A stretch of 64,000 nt of DNA from Escherichia phage RB69: the sequence record NC_004928.1. The stretch is one strand, 5' to 3'. The translations under genes and the position numbers were made by a program. Under the pieces are notes generated by a model. The model did no database searches. It was not told the origin of the DNA and saw only the letters and a program-made list of their open reading frames with translations. Of the stretch, positions 7,374 through 59,306 are shown piece after piece (the stretch's first letter is position 1; every line of letters starts with the position of its first letter).

Positions 7374-7399
7374 ATTATTCTCCTCTGGTTGATATGGGT

Positions 7400-7428
7400 T
7401 ATAATATCAAAACCAGAGGAGAAGTAAA
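7400..7428 (-). promoter_or_regulatory. early promoter (GTTTAC, 17 nt, TATTAT); spacer complementary to the downstream ribosome-binding site
   Basis: cctctggtt (7381-7389) and aaccagagg (7411-7419) form an inverted repeat around the -10. Confidence 0.5.
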
Positions 7429-7433
7429 CAACT

Positions 7434-14979: not shown

Positions 14980-15216
14980 TTAACCACTTACTGGTGTAGG
15001 GGTAAACATTGCAGCGTTCTTAGTACGCCAATCTGCTGCGTCAGTCACCACAGTAGTGTAAGCAGCTTTTTCAGATGGGAAAGTCTGATAATGAGCATCA
15101 GCAATCCGATGTTCGTTTGAATAAATCTCAAACGGTACAGAAACTTCCATACCTTTAACTTCTTTACCTTCACCAGCAGGATGCGTAAAGGTTTTGATGT
15201 TTACATAACCACCCAT
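14980..15216 (-). CDS. soc: small outer capsid protein Soc
   Basis: 78 aa; GYVNIKTF and AHYQTFPSEKAAY match T4 Soc. Confidence 0.85.
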   Translation of the reverse strand: MGGYVNIKTFTHPAGEGKEVKGMEVSVPFEIYSNEHRIADAHYQTFPSEKAAYTTVVTDAADWRTKNAAMFTPTPVSG

Positions 15217-15247
15217 AATTAACTCCTTTGTTGTTTAATTACAGGTG

Positions 15248-15255
15248 TATTTATA
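15248..15255 (-). promoter_or_regulatory. T4 late promoter TATAAATA upstream of soc
   Basis: exact TATAAATA on the minus strand about 30 nt upstream of the soc ATG. Confidence 0.6.
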
Positions 15256-20469: not shown

Positions 20470-20495
20470 TTTGTTCTCCAGTAGGTGATAGGTCT

Positions 20496-20523
20496 ATAAT
20501 ACACAACTACTGGAGAAGTAAAC
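20496..20523 (-). promoter_or_regulatory. early promoter (GTTTAC, 16 nt, TATTAT); spacer complementary to downstream ribosome-binding site
   Basis: ctccagtag (20476-20484) and ctactggag (20508-20516) form a 9-bp inverted repeat that includes the GGAG site. Confidence 0.5.
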
Positions 20524-45447: not shown

Positions 45448-47261
45448 TGGTGTTTAACCCTATGCATGATTTCTTTATTTTTACCGAGATTAAATCCGCG
45501 TTCGTTCGGATTTCCCAAATAACCGCATGTTCTTCTTATGGTGTTCATCTTTTTAGGATCAGTTTCTCCACAAATAGAACAAACAAATCCGGTTTCAGTA
45601 GGAGTCATTTCATGGGTACTTCCGCATGTAAAACATTTATCTACTGGCATATTAACACCAAAATAATCTAAATGTTGTGCAGCATAATCCCACACGGCCT
45701 CAAGACCTTTTAAGTTATTTTTCATATCAGGAAGTTCAACATAAGAAATGTGACCACCTGTCGCAATGAAATGATATGGCGCTTCACGAGAAATCTTTTC
45801 AAACGGAGTAATATTTTCTTCTACTGAAACATGGAAACTATTAGTGTACCAGCCTTTATCAGTAACATCCTTTACACTTCCATATTTTTCTGTATCAAGT
45901 TTACAGAAGCGATAACAAAGGTTTTCAGCAGGTGTAGAATACAAGCTAAAAGCAAACCCAGTTCTTTCAGTCCATTGTTTAAGAAGAGCATTCATTTTAG
46001 TTAAAATTTCTTGTCCAATATCACGACCGACAAGAATATTCAATTCGTGAATACCAATGTATCCTAGGGACACTGAACTTCTACCATTTTTAAATAACTC
46101 AATTATGTCATCATCAGGTTTAAGACGAACCCCGAATGCACCTTCTTGGTAAAGAATAGGAGCAACAGTAGCTTTAACTCCTTTTAAGGAACTAATTCTA
46201 CACATCAAAGCTTCAAAACACAGGTCCATTCGCTCATCGAACAATTCAGTAAATTTCTGTTCATTGAACTGTGTTCCAATATAAGAATCTAACGCAATAC
46301 GAGGAAGATTCAGTGTTACAACGCCAAGATTATTGCGTCCATCAAGAATTTCATTGCCAGTTGAATCTTTCCATATGCTCAAGAAACTACGGCAACCCAT
46401 TGGAGAAACAGGAACTGAAGAACCGGTAATAGCTTTATTATTCTTAACCGAAATAATGTCAGGATACATTCTTTTGCTTGCGCACTCTAACGCAAGTTGT
46501 TTAATATCATAGTTCGGATCATCTTTATAAAGATTAACACCTTCTTCAACAAACATAACAAGTTTAGGAAAAATAGGAGTTATTCCATCACGACCAAGAC
46601 CTTTAATGCGGTTTTTAAGAATTGCTTTCTGAATCATTCGTTCAGTCCAGTCAGTTCCCGTACCAAATGTAATTGTTACAAAAGGCGTTTGTCCGTTTGA
46701 ACTAAAGAGAGTATTTACTTCATATTCATAAGCTTGGAATGCATCGTATACGTCTTTTTCTGTTTTAGACTGGGCATAATTCAACGCATCAGCGATTTGC
46801 CATTTTTCTGCATCCTCAATATGTTTTGCATAGGTGCGTTTAACATAAGGAGAAAGTACTTTATCTACATTAGCAAAAGTCGTTCCGCCGTATTGATGGG
46901 AAGCAACCTGTGCAGTAATTTGTGCCATAATTGCAGTAGCAACGCCAATAGATTTAGGCGTTTCAATTTGAGCATTGCCTAATTTAAATCCATTCTCAAG
47001 CATCCCCTTTAAATCGACTAAACAGCAATTGGTAAACGGAAGAGCAGGAGAATAATCAATATCATGCATGTGAATGATTCCGCTTTCATGCGCATGCATA
47101 ATAAAAGACGGGACCATATTTTTGGCAATGTGCTTAGACACAATACCAGCCATAAGGTCCCGTTGAGTTGGAAAAACACGAGAATCTTTATTAGCATTCT
47201 CGTTCAAAAGATCTTTATTAGTTTTATAAATTAATCCTTCAATTTCTTTTTCAATTTTCAT
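45444..47261 (-). CDS. nrdD: anaerobic ribonucleoside-triphosphate reductase NrdD, uninterrupted
   Basis: 605 aa; glycyl-radical motif RRTCGYLG near the C-terminus; continuous ORF, no intron. Confidence 0.9.
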   Translation of the reverse strand: MKIEKEIEGLIYKTNKDLLNENANKDSRVFPTQRDLMAGIVSKHIAKNMVPSFIMHAHESGIIHMHDIDYSPALPFTNCCLVDLKGMLENGFKLGNAQIETPKSIGVATAIMAQITAQVASHQYGGTTFANVDKVLSPYVKRTYAKHIEDAEKWQIADALNYAQSKTEKDVYDAFQAYEYEVNTLFSSNGQTPFVTITFGTGTDWTERMIQKAILKNRIKGLGRDGITPIFPKLVMFVEEGVNLYKDDPNYDIKQLALECASKRMYPDIISVKNNKAITGSSVPVSPMGCRSFLSIWKDSTGNEILDGRNNLGVVTLNLPRIALDSYIGTQFNEQKFTELFDERMDLCFEALMCRISSLKGVKATVAPILYQEGAFGVRLKPDDDIIELFKNGRSSVSLGYIGIHELNILVGRDIGQEILTKMNALLKQWTERTGFAFSLYSTPAENLCYRFCKLDTEKYGSVKDVTDKGWYTNSFHVSVEENITPFEKISREAPYHFIATGGHISYVELPDMKNNLKGLEAVWDYAAQHLDYFGVNMPVDKCFTCGSTHEMTPTETGFVCSICGETDPKKMNTIRRTCGYLGNPNERGFNLGKNKEIMHRVKHQ

Positions 47262-47731
47262 TTTAAACTCTTTCTAAGCTGCTTTTTGAATGAAGCTATT
47301 AATTGTGTTTTAGTATCAGATTCATTATATTCAAATCCTCTTTGAAGCATCTCAGCCATCATTTCCTCTTTACCTAGTCTTGAGAACTCTTTAGTTTTGT
47401 CTGGAACAAAATTAGGATGGATATTATTATCAGAATAATCTTGTTTCAAATAAGCAAGAAGAGCTTCAAGCCATTCTAAGTAGTCAACGTTTTGTCCTTT
47501 CAAACCGGAACGGTTGAACTTATGCTTCATTTGACCTTCTGCTGCGTTGCACAGATTACAGAGTAATCCACGAACTCTACCGGCTTTTGGCCCGTTTAAT
47601 TCATGGTCGTGGTCAAGATGGTTACCTTGAACATCAGGGTCTAATTCACGGTGGCAAATAGGACACTTACCGTTCTGTGCATCATAAAATTTTTGTTTTT
47701 CTTCTTTATATTTTGCGCCTGATAATAACAT
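47258..47731 (-). CDS. 49: endonuclease VII (Holliday-junction resolvase) gp49
   Basis: 157 aa; near-identical to T4 endo VII as I recall it. Confidence 0.9.
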   Translation of the reverse strand: MLLSGAKYKEEKQKFYDAQNGKCPICHRELDPDVQGNHLDHDHELNGPKAGRVRGLLCNLCNAAEGQMKHKFNRSGLKGQNVDYLEWLEALLAYLKQDYSDNNIHPNFVPDKTKEFSRLGKEEMMAEMLQRGFEYNESDTKTQLIASFKKQLRKSLK

Positions 47732-47737
47732 GATAAA

Positions 47738-47768
47738 CCCTTACCTTAAATAGATAAGGGTATTTATA
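47738..47768 (-). promoter_or_regulatory. late promoter TATAAATA (47761-47768) with hairpin (47738-47760) covering the gene 49 ribosome-binding site
   Basis: minus strand TATAAATAcccttatctatttaaggtaagggtttatcATG; ccctta/taaggg stem includes the AAGG site. Confidence 0.55.
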
Positions 47769-47770
47769 AT

Positions 47771-47950
47771 TTAGTAAACGTTATAAAAGTCTCGATGAAA
47801 ACGTTTATATTGACGAATCATTTTCTTAGTAGGACGTGTTACTGAAATAATTGAAGTAGTCATAGTCGGATTGTTTGGAGCGCCAGTCATAACAAATTTC
47901 CAGGATTTTTGGCCATTTTTTCTTTCACCATAAAATAATTCAGTTTTCAT
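47771..47950 (-). CDS. small basic-tail protein, family member 1
   Basis: 59 aa translated by hand (MKTELFYGERKNGQKSWKFVMTGAPNNPTMTTSIISVTRPTKKMIRQYKRFHRDFYNVY). Confidence 0.4.
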   Translation of the reverse strand: MKTELFYGERKNGQKSWKFVMTGAPNNPTMTTSIISVTRPTKKMIRQYKRFHRDFYNVY

Positions 47951-48374: not shown

Positions 48375-48546
48375 TCAATATTCTCTATAAAAGTTACGAT
48401 GAGAACGTTTAGCTTTGCGAAGCTGACGTTTAGTAGGACGAACTGTAAATGGTTGTCCAGAGAAAAAATTCGGATCGGTTTTAATAAGCAAATACCAATC
48501 ATGTTTGCCATTTTTTTAATAAACGGTACAATAATTTAACTTGCAT
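48375..48546 (-). pseudogene. frameshifted paralogue of 47771..47950, broken at an A7 tract (48511-48517)
   Basis: frame 1 gives MQVKLLYRLLKKWQT then stop; the -1 frame continues KNGKHDWYLLIKTDPNFFSGQPFTVRPTKRQLRKAKRSHRNFYREY; removing one A restores a single ORF. Confidence 0.4.
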
Positions 48547-58484: not shown

Positions 58485-58697
58485 TTAATTTTGGCCAGTA
58501 TTTATTTTTCGCCTTTGGACGGCCTTAACATCTGCGAGGTATTTTTCCAGCTTACGCTTACGAGTATAATCTGCTTTAGAACCAGTTTGACGGATATCCT
58601 CATTTAAATGAGAAATAGAATGTCCTAATTCTCTTCGGATTTCATCCAATTGGGTTACAGTAAGATTACGAAGTTGTCTTTCGTTTAATTGCTGCAT
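58485..58697 (-). CDS. hypothetical protein
   Basis: 70-aa ORF. Confidence 0.4.
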
Positions 58698-58724
58698 ATA
58701 TACCTCTTGGTTAGATATTAGTAT

Positions 58725-59306
58725 TTATAACAACCCTGTCAAATCGTTCCAATGCTTCCGGCATAATGACACGTATCTATCGGTATCACCAATTTCAATT
58801 TGACTGCCATCTGTAATTGGAAGTCCGTCTTCCGTGACTCTAGCTACCATTGTGGCCTTTTTACCGCAATGACAGACACCTTTAAGTTCAACAAGCTTAT
58901 CGGCAATAGCCATTAATGCTTGAGAACCTTCAAATAGATTACCTTTAAAATCTGTTCGTAGTCCGTATGCCATTACCGGCACATTGTATACGTCAACAAT
59001 ACGACTAAGTTGATACACCTTTTCAGTAGTTAAGAACTGAGCTTCGTCAACAAATACACAGTGAATATCCTTTTGTGCTGCAGCCCATTTATAGAATTCA
59101 AAGATATCCATGTCTTTTGTAATTATATTGGCGTCCTGACGAATACCAATACGAGAGACTATTTCACCTTTTGAATCGCGAGTATCAATAGCCGGTTTAA
59201 GAACTAATACACCCATGCCACGTTCTTTATAGTTATGTGCGGCAGTAAGTAATGAAGCAGACTTACCAGCGTTCATAGCGGCATATGTAAAAATTAAACT
59301 AGCCAT
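58725..59306 (-). CDS. tk: thymidine kinase
   Basis: 193 aa; P-loop AMNAGKS and C-terminal zinc-ribbon cysteines. Confidence 0.9.
   Translation of the reverse strand: MASLIFTYAAMNAGKSASLLTAAHNYKERGMGVLVLKPAIDTRDSKGEIVSRIGIRQDANIITKDMDIFEFYKWAAAQKDIHCVFVDEAQFLTTEKVYQLSRIVDVYNVPVMAYGLRTDFKGNLFEGSQALMAIADKLVELKGVCHCGKKATMVARVTEDGLPITDGSQIEIGDTDRYVSLCRKHWNDLTGLL

What the first reader, a model, noticed from the sequence alone, without database searches (positions are those of the whole stretch)
47738..47768. Gene 49 late promoter inside a hairpin that hides the ribosome-binding site
Directly upstream of the endonuclease VII gene, a TATAAATA late promoter is followed by a stem (ccctta and taaggg) that contains the ribosome-binding site. 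This is the arrangement known from T4 gene 49, where long early transcripts are translationally silent and late transcripts start inside the hairpin. Its conservation here supports the gene and promoter assignments. A second late promoter sits upstream of soc at 15248-15255.
Basis: established knowledge. Interest (0 to 1): 0.35.

Follow-up and report, generated by a model that had tools for sequence, protein, structure and literature searches.

The report
Gene 49 late-promoter/hairpin translational switch
Just upstream of this T4-like phage's endonuclease VII gene, a late promoter abuts an RNA hairpin that hides the ribosome-binding site on long early transcripts but cannot form on short late ones; this is the switch already described for phage T4 gene 49, so the finding is correct but ordinary.

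Summary
On the minus strand, TATAAATA (47768-47761) is followed by a hairpin that contains the Shine-Dalgarno sequence of gene 49 (endonuclease VII, 47731-47258). This puts it in the top 0.3% of local folds in the window.

The 25-nt hairpin is identical to the one in phage T4, where this switch was described (Barth et al. 1988; reviewed in PMC3014915).

The -13..-6 rule puts the late start at A47755, inside the 5' arm. Predicted unpaired probability of the Shine-Dalgarno goes from 0.00 on long RNAs to about 0.6 on late RNAs.

Across 70 gp49 loci (45 distinct leaders, protein identity down to 41%):
- TAAATA is always present.
- A hairpin starts within 2 nt of its last A in 43 of 45 leaders.
- The hairpin pairs the Shine-Dalgarno or the AUG in 44 of 45.
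- Five of ten stem pairs show compensatory changes.

T4 omics data fit: gene 49 mRNA is classed early, but the protein appears only from 12 min.

The title is slightly loose, because only the last promoter base lies in the stem. The soc promoter claim is also confirmed.

Verdict: correct, already known, low interest.

The parts
47771..47950 (-). Upstream 59-aa ORF (DUF7279). Its stop codon TAA (47773-47771) lies 2 nt before the promoter. Transcripts that cross this ORF carry the whole hairpin.
   Evidence: ORF list. Pfam PF23945, 8.5e-16. phrog_3272, 2.3e-30.
47761..47768 (-). T4-type late promoter element TATAAATA, recognised by gp55, at positions -13 to -6.
   Evidence: Exact match. TAAATA is invariant in all 45 distinct homologous leaders. 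The same site is annotated as a late promoter in the SA79RD record. Position rule from PMC1524935.
47755..47755 (-). Predicted late transcription start (+1, an A), 6 nt after the last A of TATAAATA and inside the 5' arm.
   Evidence: Inferred from the -13..-6 rule (PMC1524935; PMC2988020). Not mapped experimentally.
47752..47761 (-). 5' arm of the hairpin, ACCCUUAUCU. Its first 6 bases are absent from the predicted late RNA.
   Evidence: RNAfold. Covariation.
47747..47751 (-). Hairpin loop AUUUA.
   Evidence: RNAfold. The loop varies in sequence and length among relatives.
47737..47746 (-). 3' arm of the hairpin, AGGUAAGGGU. It contains the Shine-Dalgarno UAAGGGU (47743-47737).
   Evidence: RNAfold. 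Shine-Dalgarno assigned by duplex energy with the 16S tail, and fully paired.
47258..47731 (-). Gene 49, recombination endonuclease VII (157 aa). AUG at 47731-47729, 5 nt after the stem.
   Evidence: Pfam PF02945 and PF09124. 90% identical to T4 gp49. Annotated as endonuclease VII in relatives.

Best explanation
This is the orthologue, in an RB69-like phage (Mosigvirus), of the T4 gene 49 translational timing switch.

Proposed mechanism:
1. Long early or middle transcripts that start upstream read through pin and the DUF7279 ORF.
2. These transcripts contain both arms of a 10-bp hairpin. The hairpin locks up the Shine-Dalgarno, so ribosomes cannot start full-length endonuclease VII.
3. After replication begins, gp55-RNA polymerase uses the TATAAATA that abuts the hairpin and starts at about A47755.
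4. This late RNA lacks the G+C-rich base of the 5' arm. The hairpin cannot form, the Shine-Dalgarno is free, and the enzyme is made late, when DNA branches must be resolved for packaging.

Shown here: the motifs, the fold, identity with T4, covariation, and conservation of the geometry.

Inferred: the late start site, read-through from upstream promoters, and the effect on translation in this phage.
For: - The 25-nt hairpin is identical to T4's.
- Hairpin energy is -12.4 kcal/mol, in the top 0.29% of local folds.
- The early leader folds at -12.9 kcal/mol (z = -2.49). The predicted late leader folds at -1.5 (z = +1.41) with an open centroid.
- Shine-Dalgarno unpaired probability is 0.00 on early RNA and 0.62-0.65 on late RNA, robust to a shift of 1-2 nt in the start.
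- On the structure-blind MAFFT alignment A1, 88.9% of cells are paired against 35-49% when partners are slid. Five of 10 pairs change on both sides (54 cells). The covariation score is 0.443 against at most 0.132, and 0 of 500 shuffles reach it.
- RNAalifold finds the same helix independently.
- In 45 distinct leaders from 70 loci, TAAATA is present in all. A hairpin starts within 2 nt of the last A in 43. Mean dG is -10.6 and mean z is -4.1. Initiation-region accessibility rises from 0.24 to 0.51, in 45 of 45.
- In L102 the promoter sits in the loop of a -15.9 kcal/mol hairpin: a different geometry with the same logic.
- A G-U pair is kept in 24 of 28 sequences, and the antisense strand folds less well (-8.7). 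This points to an RNA structure on the sense strand.
- Literature: T4 genes e, soc, 49 and I-TevI have inhibitory helices at their initiation regions (PMC3014915).
- T4 omics: the gene 49 transcript is classed early. END7 protein reads 0 at 0-8 min, is first seen at 12 min, and rises to 30 min (PMC9697503 supplement).
Against: - No RNA 5' ends or translation data exist for this phage.
- The primary T4 paper (Barth et al. 1988) could not be read here, so its details rest on memory and on reviews.
- The late RNA keeps AUCU, which can still pair with AGGU (4 bp). The predicted late Shine-Dalgarno accessibility is therefore about 0.6, not 1.
- Upstream early promoters are consensus matches only.
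- CCC at -5 to -3 departs from the A+T-rich region usual downstream of late TATA boxes (PMC2988020), so the promoter may be weak.
- The relatives are not phylogenetically independent, so the counts overstate the number of independent events.
- The T4 proteomics could reflect a detection threshold rather than true absence of protein early in infection.
Confidence: 0.85

Rival explanations
1. The hairpin is mainly an intrinsic (rho-independent) terminator that ends the upstream early transcription unit (pin and neighbours). Its overlap with the gene 49 ribosome-binding site would then be incidental.
For: The PhAPEC2 GenBank record annotates this same hairpin as a 'putative terminator determined with ARNold'. 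Several other records show a terminator feature under the match. The stem is followed by a U-rich stretch: UUAUCAUG here and UUAUUAUG in T4.
Against: - The window's hairpin fails the terminator scan, with only 4 T in the 8-nt tail and no run longer than 2.
- In most clades the AUG follows the stem within 0-4 nt, and the longest T run is 2 or less. Yet the hairpin, its contact with the promoter and its pairing with the Shine-Dalgarno are all kept.
- What is conserved is the pairing of the Shine-Dalgarno, not a U tract.
- The T4 gene 49 transcript is classed early, which implies read-through.
Confidence: 0.06
2. The hairpin is mainly an RNA processing or stability element: a cleavage site for a host or phage RNase on early transcripts. 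On this view it is not a steric block to ribosomes.
For: From my memory of the Barth et al. 1988 abstract, the Shine-Dalgarno in early transcripts was said to be 'sequestered in a hairpin and/or cleaved'. RegB cuts GGAG in Shine-Dalgarno sequences of early mRNAs (PMC3014915). Some distant relatives have GGAG in this leader.
Against: - The window and T4 leaders contain no GGAG.
- RNA secondary structure protects against RegB (PMC3014915).
- Selection acts on the helix as such. The stem sequences differ completely between clades, which is not what a sequence-specific cleavage site predicts.
- This idea is compatible with the main explanation as an added layer.
Confidence: 0.05
3. The match is coincidental. 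An A+T-rich intergenic region happens to contain TATAAATA and a short inverted repeat, neither with any function.
For: TATAAATA is not over-represented in the window: 3 copies against 7.3 expected. A 101-nt fold of the region is only z = -1.42.
Against: - Identity with T4.
- Compensatory changes at 5 of 10 pairs.
- The same arrangement in 44 of 45 distinct leaders, down to 41% protein identity.
- The hairpin is in the top 0.29% of local folds.
- All three TATAAATA copies sit 25-32 nt before a start codon on the coding strand, with a positional chance of about 3e-6.
Confidence: 0.01
4. The inverted repeat acts at the DNA level. It might form a small cruciform that endonuclease VII itself recognises, or a protein-binding palindrome. 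On this view it does not act as an RNA structure.
For: It is an inverted repeat next to the gene for a cruciform-cutting enzyme. This is a speculative lead only.
Against: - One stem position is a G-U pair in 24 of 28 sequences. In DNA this would be a T-G mismatch on one strand and a C-A mismatch on the other.
- The antisense strand folds less well, -8.7 against -12.4 kcal/mol.
- Arms of 8-12 bp are short for cruciform extrusion (general knowledge).
- The stem sequences differ between clades, so no protein-binding sequence is conserved.
Confidence: 0.01

Closest known systems
Phage T4 gene 49 late promoter and Shine-Dalgarno-sequestering hairpin (Barth, Powell, Trupin and Mosig 1988, Genetics 120:329; listed in PMC3014915 and PMC2988022)
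   Same: The locus is orthologous: the late promoter and hairpin lie directly upstream of gene 49, with nrdD downstream. The 25-nt hairpin ACCCTTATCTATTTAAGGTAAGGGT is identical, and so are the Shine-Dalgarno and the 30-nt distance from promoter to AUG.
   Different: - The window has a perfect TATAAATA, while T4 has AATAAATA.
- The upstream neighbour is a separate 59-aa DUF7279 ORF. In T4, pin runs up to the promoter and carries a DUF7279-like tail.
- T4's internal GUG start for the nested gp49' protein is GUU here, so that part of the T4 scheme is absent.
Phage T4 lysozyme gene e leader (McPheeters et al. 1986; PMC3014915, section 29)
   Same: A late promoter lies in the DNA that encodes the 5' strand of a helix hiding the ribosome-binding site. 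Early read-through RNA is translationally silent, and late RNA lacks the 5' strand.
   Different: It is a different gene with an unrelated sequence. Gene e has two late promoters and direct structure-probing and expression data (a 100-fold effect). No such data exist for this phage's gene 49.
Phage T4 soc leader (Macdonald, Kutter and Mosig 1984), and the soc leader in this window
   Same: This is a late gene in an early region. In the window, TATAAATA (15255-15248) is followed after 2 nt by a 13-bp stem. Predicted AUG accessibility is 0.01 on early RNA and 0.30-0.50 on late RNA.
   Different: The soc stem hides the AUG and leaves the Shine-Dalgarno in the loop. The sequence is unrelated.
Homing-endonuclease leaders: T4 I-TevI, I-TevII, I-TevIII and segB, and Aeh1 mobE (PMC2988022, section 12)
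   Same: A late promoter is placed so that late transcripts lack enough sequence to form the inhibitory structure. As here, the protein held back is a nuclease.
   Different: These are mobile-element genes, some inside introns. I-TevI also has operator and transcriptional control and is linked to intron splicing.

Membership tests
T4-type late-promoter / RBS-sequestering hairpin switch (T4 genes 49, e, soc, I-TevI) | A gp55-type late promoter element (TATAAATA, -13 to -6) lies directly upstream of the regulated gene, on its strand. | tested here: met
   Exact TATAAATA at 47768-47761 (-), 30 nt from its last A to the AUG. TAAATA is invariant in the 45 distinct homologous leaders. Position rule from PMC1524935.
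T4-type late-promoter / RBS-sequestering hairpin switch (T4 genes 49, e, soc, I-TevI) | [quoted passage not shown] | tested here: met
   10-bp stem at -12.4 kcal/mol, with the Shine-Dalgarno UAAGGGU fully paired. Top 0.29% of local folds. Compensatory changes at 5 of 10 pairs. Confirmed by RNAalifold.
T4-type late-promoter / RBS-sequestering hairpin switch (T4 genes 49, e, soc, I-TevI) | The late transcription start lies within or downstream of the 5' arm, so late RNA cannot form the helix. | tested here: inconclusive
   By the position rule, +1 is A47755, which removes 6 of 10 bases of the 5' arm. The predicted late leader is open. The geometry holds in 43 of 45 leaders. No 5' end has been mapped. 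The T4 dRNA-seq start-site table was not available.
T4-type late-promoter / RBS-sequestering hairpin switch (T4 genes 49, e, soc, I-TevI) | Earlier transcripts from upstream promoters read through the hairpin into the gene. | tested here: inconclusive
   Sigma-70-like promoters lie on the same strand at 48624-48596, 48573-48545, 50030-50002 and 51004-50976. No terminator-like site was scored at the hairpin. The T4 gene 49 transcript is classed early. There are no RNA data for this phage.
T4-type late-promoter / RBS-sequestering hairpin switch (T4 genes 49, e, soc, I-TevI) | Translation is repressed on long transcripts and active on late transcripts. | not testable with these tools
   Indirect evidence only. 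T4 END7 protein reads 0 at 0-8 min and appears from 12 min, although the transcript is classed early.
Orthologue of the T4 gene 49 leader specifically | Sequence homology of the leader and synteny with gene 49 and nrdD. | tested here: met
   25 of 25 nt identical to T4. The downstream gene is gp49, 90% identical to T4's. nrdD follows.
Orthologue of the T4 gene 49 leader specifically | An internal GUG start gives a nested gp49' protein that is translatable from early transcripts. | tested here: not met
   Codon 53 is GTT in the window (47575-47573). It is GTG in only 4 of 44 relatives. This feature is part of the T4 gene 49 scheme but not of the hairpin switch.
Intrinsic (rho-independent) terminator | A G+C-rich stem-loop followed immediately by a U tract. 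| tested here: not met
   The scan did not call it. The tail TTATCATG has 4 T and a longest run of 2. No U tract is conserved across clades.

The most novel reading that the evidence does not exclude
The late-promoter/hairpin module upstream of gene 49 may be an ancient, near-universal feature of T4-like phages, kept by compensatory evolution. It is present from T-even phages to Aeromonas-type and Acinetobacter-type relatives, with gp49 identity down to 41%. The stem sequences are completely different between clades, and there is at least one alternative geometry with the promoter in the loop.

By contrast, T4's nested gp49' start is a lineage-specific addition. This would mean the selected function is to prevent early synthesis of full-length endonuclease VII.

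The same promoter-in-hairpin logic also seems to be used with early promoters elsewhere in this window (ATG 7373 and ATG 20469). I found no published comparative analysis of the gene 49 leader in the searched library.
Probability: 0.55. Interest if true: 0.3.

Novelty: already known. Interest (0 to 1): 0.15.

Why it matters
The finding confirms the gene 49 start codon, the late-promoter assignment and the strand. It also shows that a classic T4 regulatory device is intact in an RB69-like phage.

Practical value:
- Genome annotators should label this hairpin as a translational control element. At least one public record labels it a terminator.
- The comparative data are a clean example of covariation in a very short regulatory helix.

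It opens no new question. The mechanism has been in the T4 literature since 1988.

Tried and rejected
- Barth et al. 1988 (PMC1203513) and Miller et al. 2003 (PMC150520) are not held. Details of the T4 mapping therefore rest on reviews and on memory.
- The T4 dRNA-seq start-site table (bioRxiv 10.1101/2024.04.04.588121, Table S9) is not among the held supplements. A search for positions 46877-46881 found nothing.
- RB69 records NC_004928 and AY303349 are not in the phage collection. I could not check whether the 2006 list of predicted RB69 late promoters includes this site.
- An Rfam scan of the whole window found no family at gathering threshold.
- The terminator reading was rejected: the scan does not call the hairpin, and no U tract is conserved.
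- The DNA cruciform reading was rejected because of the conserved G-U pair and the strand asymmetry.
- Enrichment of TATAAATA in the window was tested and is absent. Only the placement of the copies is non-random.
- A 101-nt fold gives only z = -1.42. The signal is local and shows up with tighter windows.
- The Wilcoxon p-value is descriptive only, because the sequences are related.

Full report
**What is in the sequence.** The finding lies on the minus strand.
- The ORF 47731-47258 encodes a 157-aa protein with both endonuclease VII Pfam domains: PF02945 (4.9e-20) and PF09124 (2.5e-32).
- It is followed by nrdD and preceded by a 59-aa DUF7279 ORF (47950-47771) and by pin.
- The region is 96-98% identical to RB69-like coliphages of the genus Mosigvirus.

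The 39-nt intergenic space reads TAA-AT-TATAAATA-CCCTTATCTATTTAAGGTAAGGGT-TTATC-ATG. The coordinates are therefore right.

RNAfold extends the stem to 10 bp: ACCCUUAUCU (47761-47752) pairs with AGGUAAGGGU (47746-47737), with loop AUUUA, at -12.4 kcal/mol. The Shine-Dalgarno UAAGGGU is completely paired, and the AUG lies 5 nt after the stem. Only the last A of the promoter element belongs to the stem. The title ('promoter inside a hairpin') is therefore loose, while the text of the finding is accurate.

**Is it more than chance?**
- TATAAATA is not enriched in the window: 3 copies against 7.3 +/- 2.8 expected.
- All three copies lie on the coding strand 25-32 nt before a start codon. Only 1.5% of positions qualify, so three out of three has a chance of about 3e-6.
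- Only 0.29% of all 33-nt segments of the window fold at -12.5 kcal/mol or better.
- The leader scores z = -4.1 against dinucleotide shuffles.
- In a long-transcript context, gene 49 has the third least accessible Shine-Dalgarno of 112 ORFs: 0.12 against a median of 0.44.

**Early versus late RNA.** The published rule places TATAAATA at -13 to -6 (PMC1524935; PMC2988020). The late start is therefore predicted at A47755, inside the 5' arm.
- Any RNA with a 5' end at or upstream of 47761 has a Shine-Dalgarno unpaired probability of 0.00.
- With 5' ends at 47757-47750 the probability is 0.54-0.65.
- A 72-nt early leader folds at -12.9 kcal/mol (z = -2.49).
- The predicted late leader folds at -1.5 kcal/mol (z = +1.41) with an open centroid.
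- The late RNA keeps AUCU, which can still pair weakly with AGGU. This is why accessibility does not reach 1.

**Comparison with T4 and other relatives.** T4 has exactly the same 25-nt hairpin. Its promoter reads AATAAATA, and pin runs directly up to it.

I collected 70 gp49 loci, with protein identity from 99% down to 41% on contigs of 160-233 kb. They give 45 distinct leaders:
- TAAATA is present in all 45.
- A hairpin of -7 kcal/mol or better starts within 2 nt of its last A in 43 of 45. Mean dG is -10.6 and mean z is -4.1.
- Predicted accessibility of the initiation region rises from 0.24 (early) to 0.51 (late), in 45 of 45.
- The hairpin pairs the Shine-Dalgarno in 39 leaders, the AUG in 3, both in 2, and neither in 1, L091.

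The stem sequences differ completely between clades. Examples are CCCUUAUCU/AGGUAAGGG, GGUUCAUCU/AGGUGAACC, GAGUCAU/AUGACUC and CCUCUAUA/UAUAGGGG.

On a structure-blind MAFFT alignment of 28 distinct sequences:
- 88.9% of cells are paired, against 35-49% when partners are slid by 1-3 columns.
- Five of 10 pairs carry double changes (54 cells).
- The covariation score is 0.443 against at most 0.132.
- None of 500 shuffles reaches these values.

RNAalifold predicts the same helix independently. In one locus (L102) the promoter lies in the loop of a -15.9 kcal/mol hairpin. This is a different geometry with the same logic.

A G-U pair kept in 24 of 28 sequences, and a weaker antisense fold (-8.7), show that this is an RNA structure on the sense strand.

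**Experimental support from T4.**
- A review lists genes e, soc, 49 and I-TevI as having inhibitory helices at their initiation regions. For gene e it describes late promoters within the DNA for the 5' strand (PMC3014915). PMC2988022 cites Barth et al. 1988 for the same point.
- In the time-resolved T4 data of PMC9697503, the gene 49 transcript is classed 'early'.
- In the same data, END7_BPT4 protein intensity is 0 at 0, 1, 3, 5 and 8 min. It appears at 12 min in two of three replicates and rises at 20 and 30 min, like baseplate proteins gp48 and gp54.
- This fits a translational block on early RNA, although a detection limit cannot be excluded.

**Rivals.**
- *Terminator.* One public record annotates the hairpin as an ARNold terminator. 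The window's hairpin fails the terminator scan. In most clades the stem is followed at once by the AUG, with no U tract, while pairing of the Shine-Dalgarno is always kept.
- *RNase site.* This cannot be excluded as an added layer. However, the leader has no GGAG, and selection acts on the pairing rather than on a sequence.
- *Chance and DNA-level readings.* Covariation and strand asymmetry exclude both.

**Other parts of the finding.** The soc claim is correct. TATAAATA at 15255-15248 (-) lies 32 nt before the soc ATG at 15216. In early-type RNA a 13-bp stem starting 2 nt after the promoter hides the AUG.

**Differences from T4.**
- The window has a perfect consensus promoter.
- A separate DUF7279 ORF lies between pin and the promoter. 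This ORF is absent in PhAPEC2. In T4 it is fused to pin as a 17-aa tail.
- T4's internal GUG start is missing: codon 53 is GTT here, and GTG in only 4 of 44 relatives.

**Verdict.** The element is the already-described T4 gene 49 switch, with an identical hairpin sequence. It is therefore already known and of low interest. The only modestly new point is how deeply the module is conserved and how it has changed through compensatory evolution.

Noticed in passing
window 47573-47575 (-), codon 53 of gene 49: T4's internal GUG start for the nested gp49' protein is GTT here. It is GTT, GTC, GTA or ATT in 40 of 44 relatives, including close T4 relatives (GTA). The nested protein therefore looks specific to T4, unlike the hairpin.
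   Followed up: partly
window 7378-7429 (-) and 20474-20523 (-): The two ORFs with the least accessible Shine-Dalgarno in the window are ATG 7373 (174 aa, phrog_1106) and ATG 20469 (105 aa, phrog_2110). Each has a 12-13 bp hairpin whose 5' arm (UUCUCC...) lies in the spacer of an early-type sigma-70 promoter (GTTTAC-N16/17-TATTAT). RNA from the gene's own promoter would lack the 5' arm, while read-through RNA would hide the Shine-Dalgarno. This is the same logic, applied with early promoters.
   Followed up: partly
window 15216-15255 (-): The soc leader has a 13-bp stem, CACCUGUAAUUAA/UUAAUUAUGGGUG, that starts 2 nt after TATAAATA. It hides the AUG and leaves the Shine-Dalgarno in the loop. 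Predicted AUG accessibility is 0.01 on early RNA and 0.30-0.50 on late RNA.
   Followed up: partly
window 58722-58729 (-) and 58499-58506 (-): The third TATAAATA overlaps the last codons of tk and lies 25 nt before a 70-aa ORF (phrog_1826). An AATAAATA lies 27 nt before an rI-like lysis-inhibition gene (58472-58170, phrog_1246). Both have only weak stems over the Shine-Dalgarno, at -2.4 and -5.9 kcal/mol.
   Followed up: partly
window 47771-47950 (-) and 48375-48491 (-): A DUF7279 ORF sits between pin and the gene 49 promoter. A second ORF upstream of pin has a similar C-terminal tail (not scanned against Pfam). The first copy is absent in PhAPEC2-type Mosigviruses, where homology resumes exactly at 47767. 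In T4 it survives only as the last 17 aa of Pin (59% identity). It is therefore an insertion/deletion whose edge abuts the promoter.
   Followed up: partly
L128 158-185 (PhAPEC2, NC_024794.1 46835-46862): A public record annotates the gene 49 Shine-Dalgarno-sequestering hairpin as an ARNold 'putative terminator'. Other records also show terminator features under this match. This is probably a misannotation.
   Followed up: yes
L102 about 340-391 (IMG/VR contig IMGVR_UViG_2974770551_000001): This locus has a different geometry. TATAAATA lies in the loop of a -15.9 kcal/mol hairpin (UUCCUCCAAUA/UAUUGGAGGAA, z = -4.7) that hides both the Shine-Dalgarno and the AUG of gp49.
   Followed up: partly
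L091 about 360-405 (IMG/VR contig IMGVR_UViG_3300033696_000004): This is the only gp49 leader with a late-promoter motif but no convincing hairpin over the Shine-Dalgarno (-2.3 kcal/mol). Its start codon is also uncertain: either TTG or an ATG 15 nt upstream.
   Followed up: no
whole window: Gene content is almost all on one strand: 106 of 112 greedy ORFs are on the minus strand. TATAAATA occurs less often than expected, 3 against 7.3. No Rfam family is found at gathering threshold. All this fits an early-gene region of a T4-like genome.
   Followed up: no
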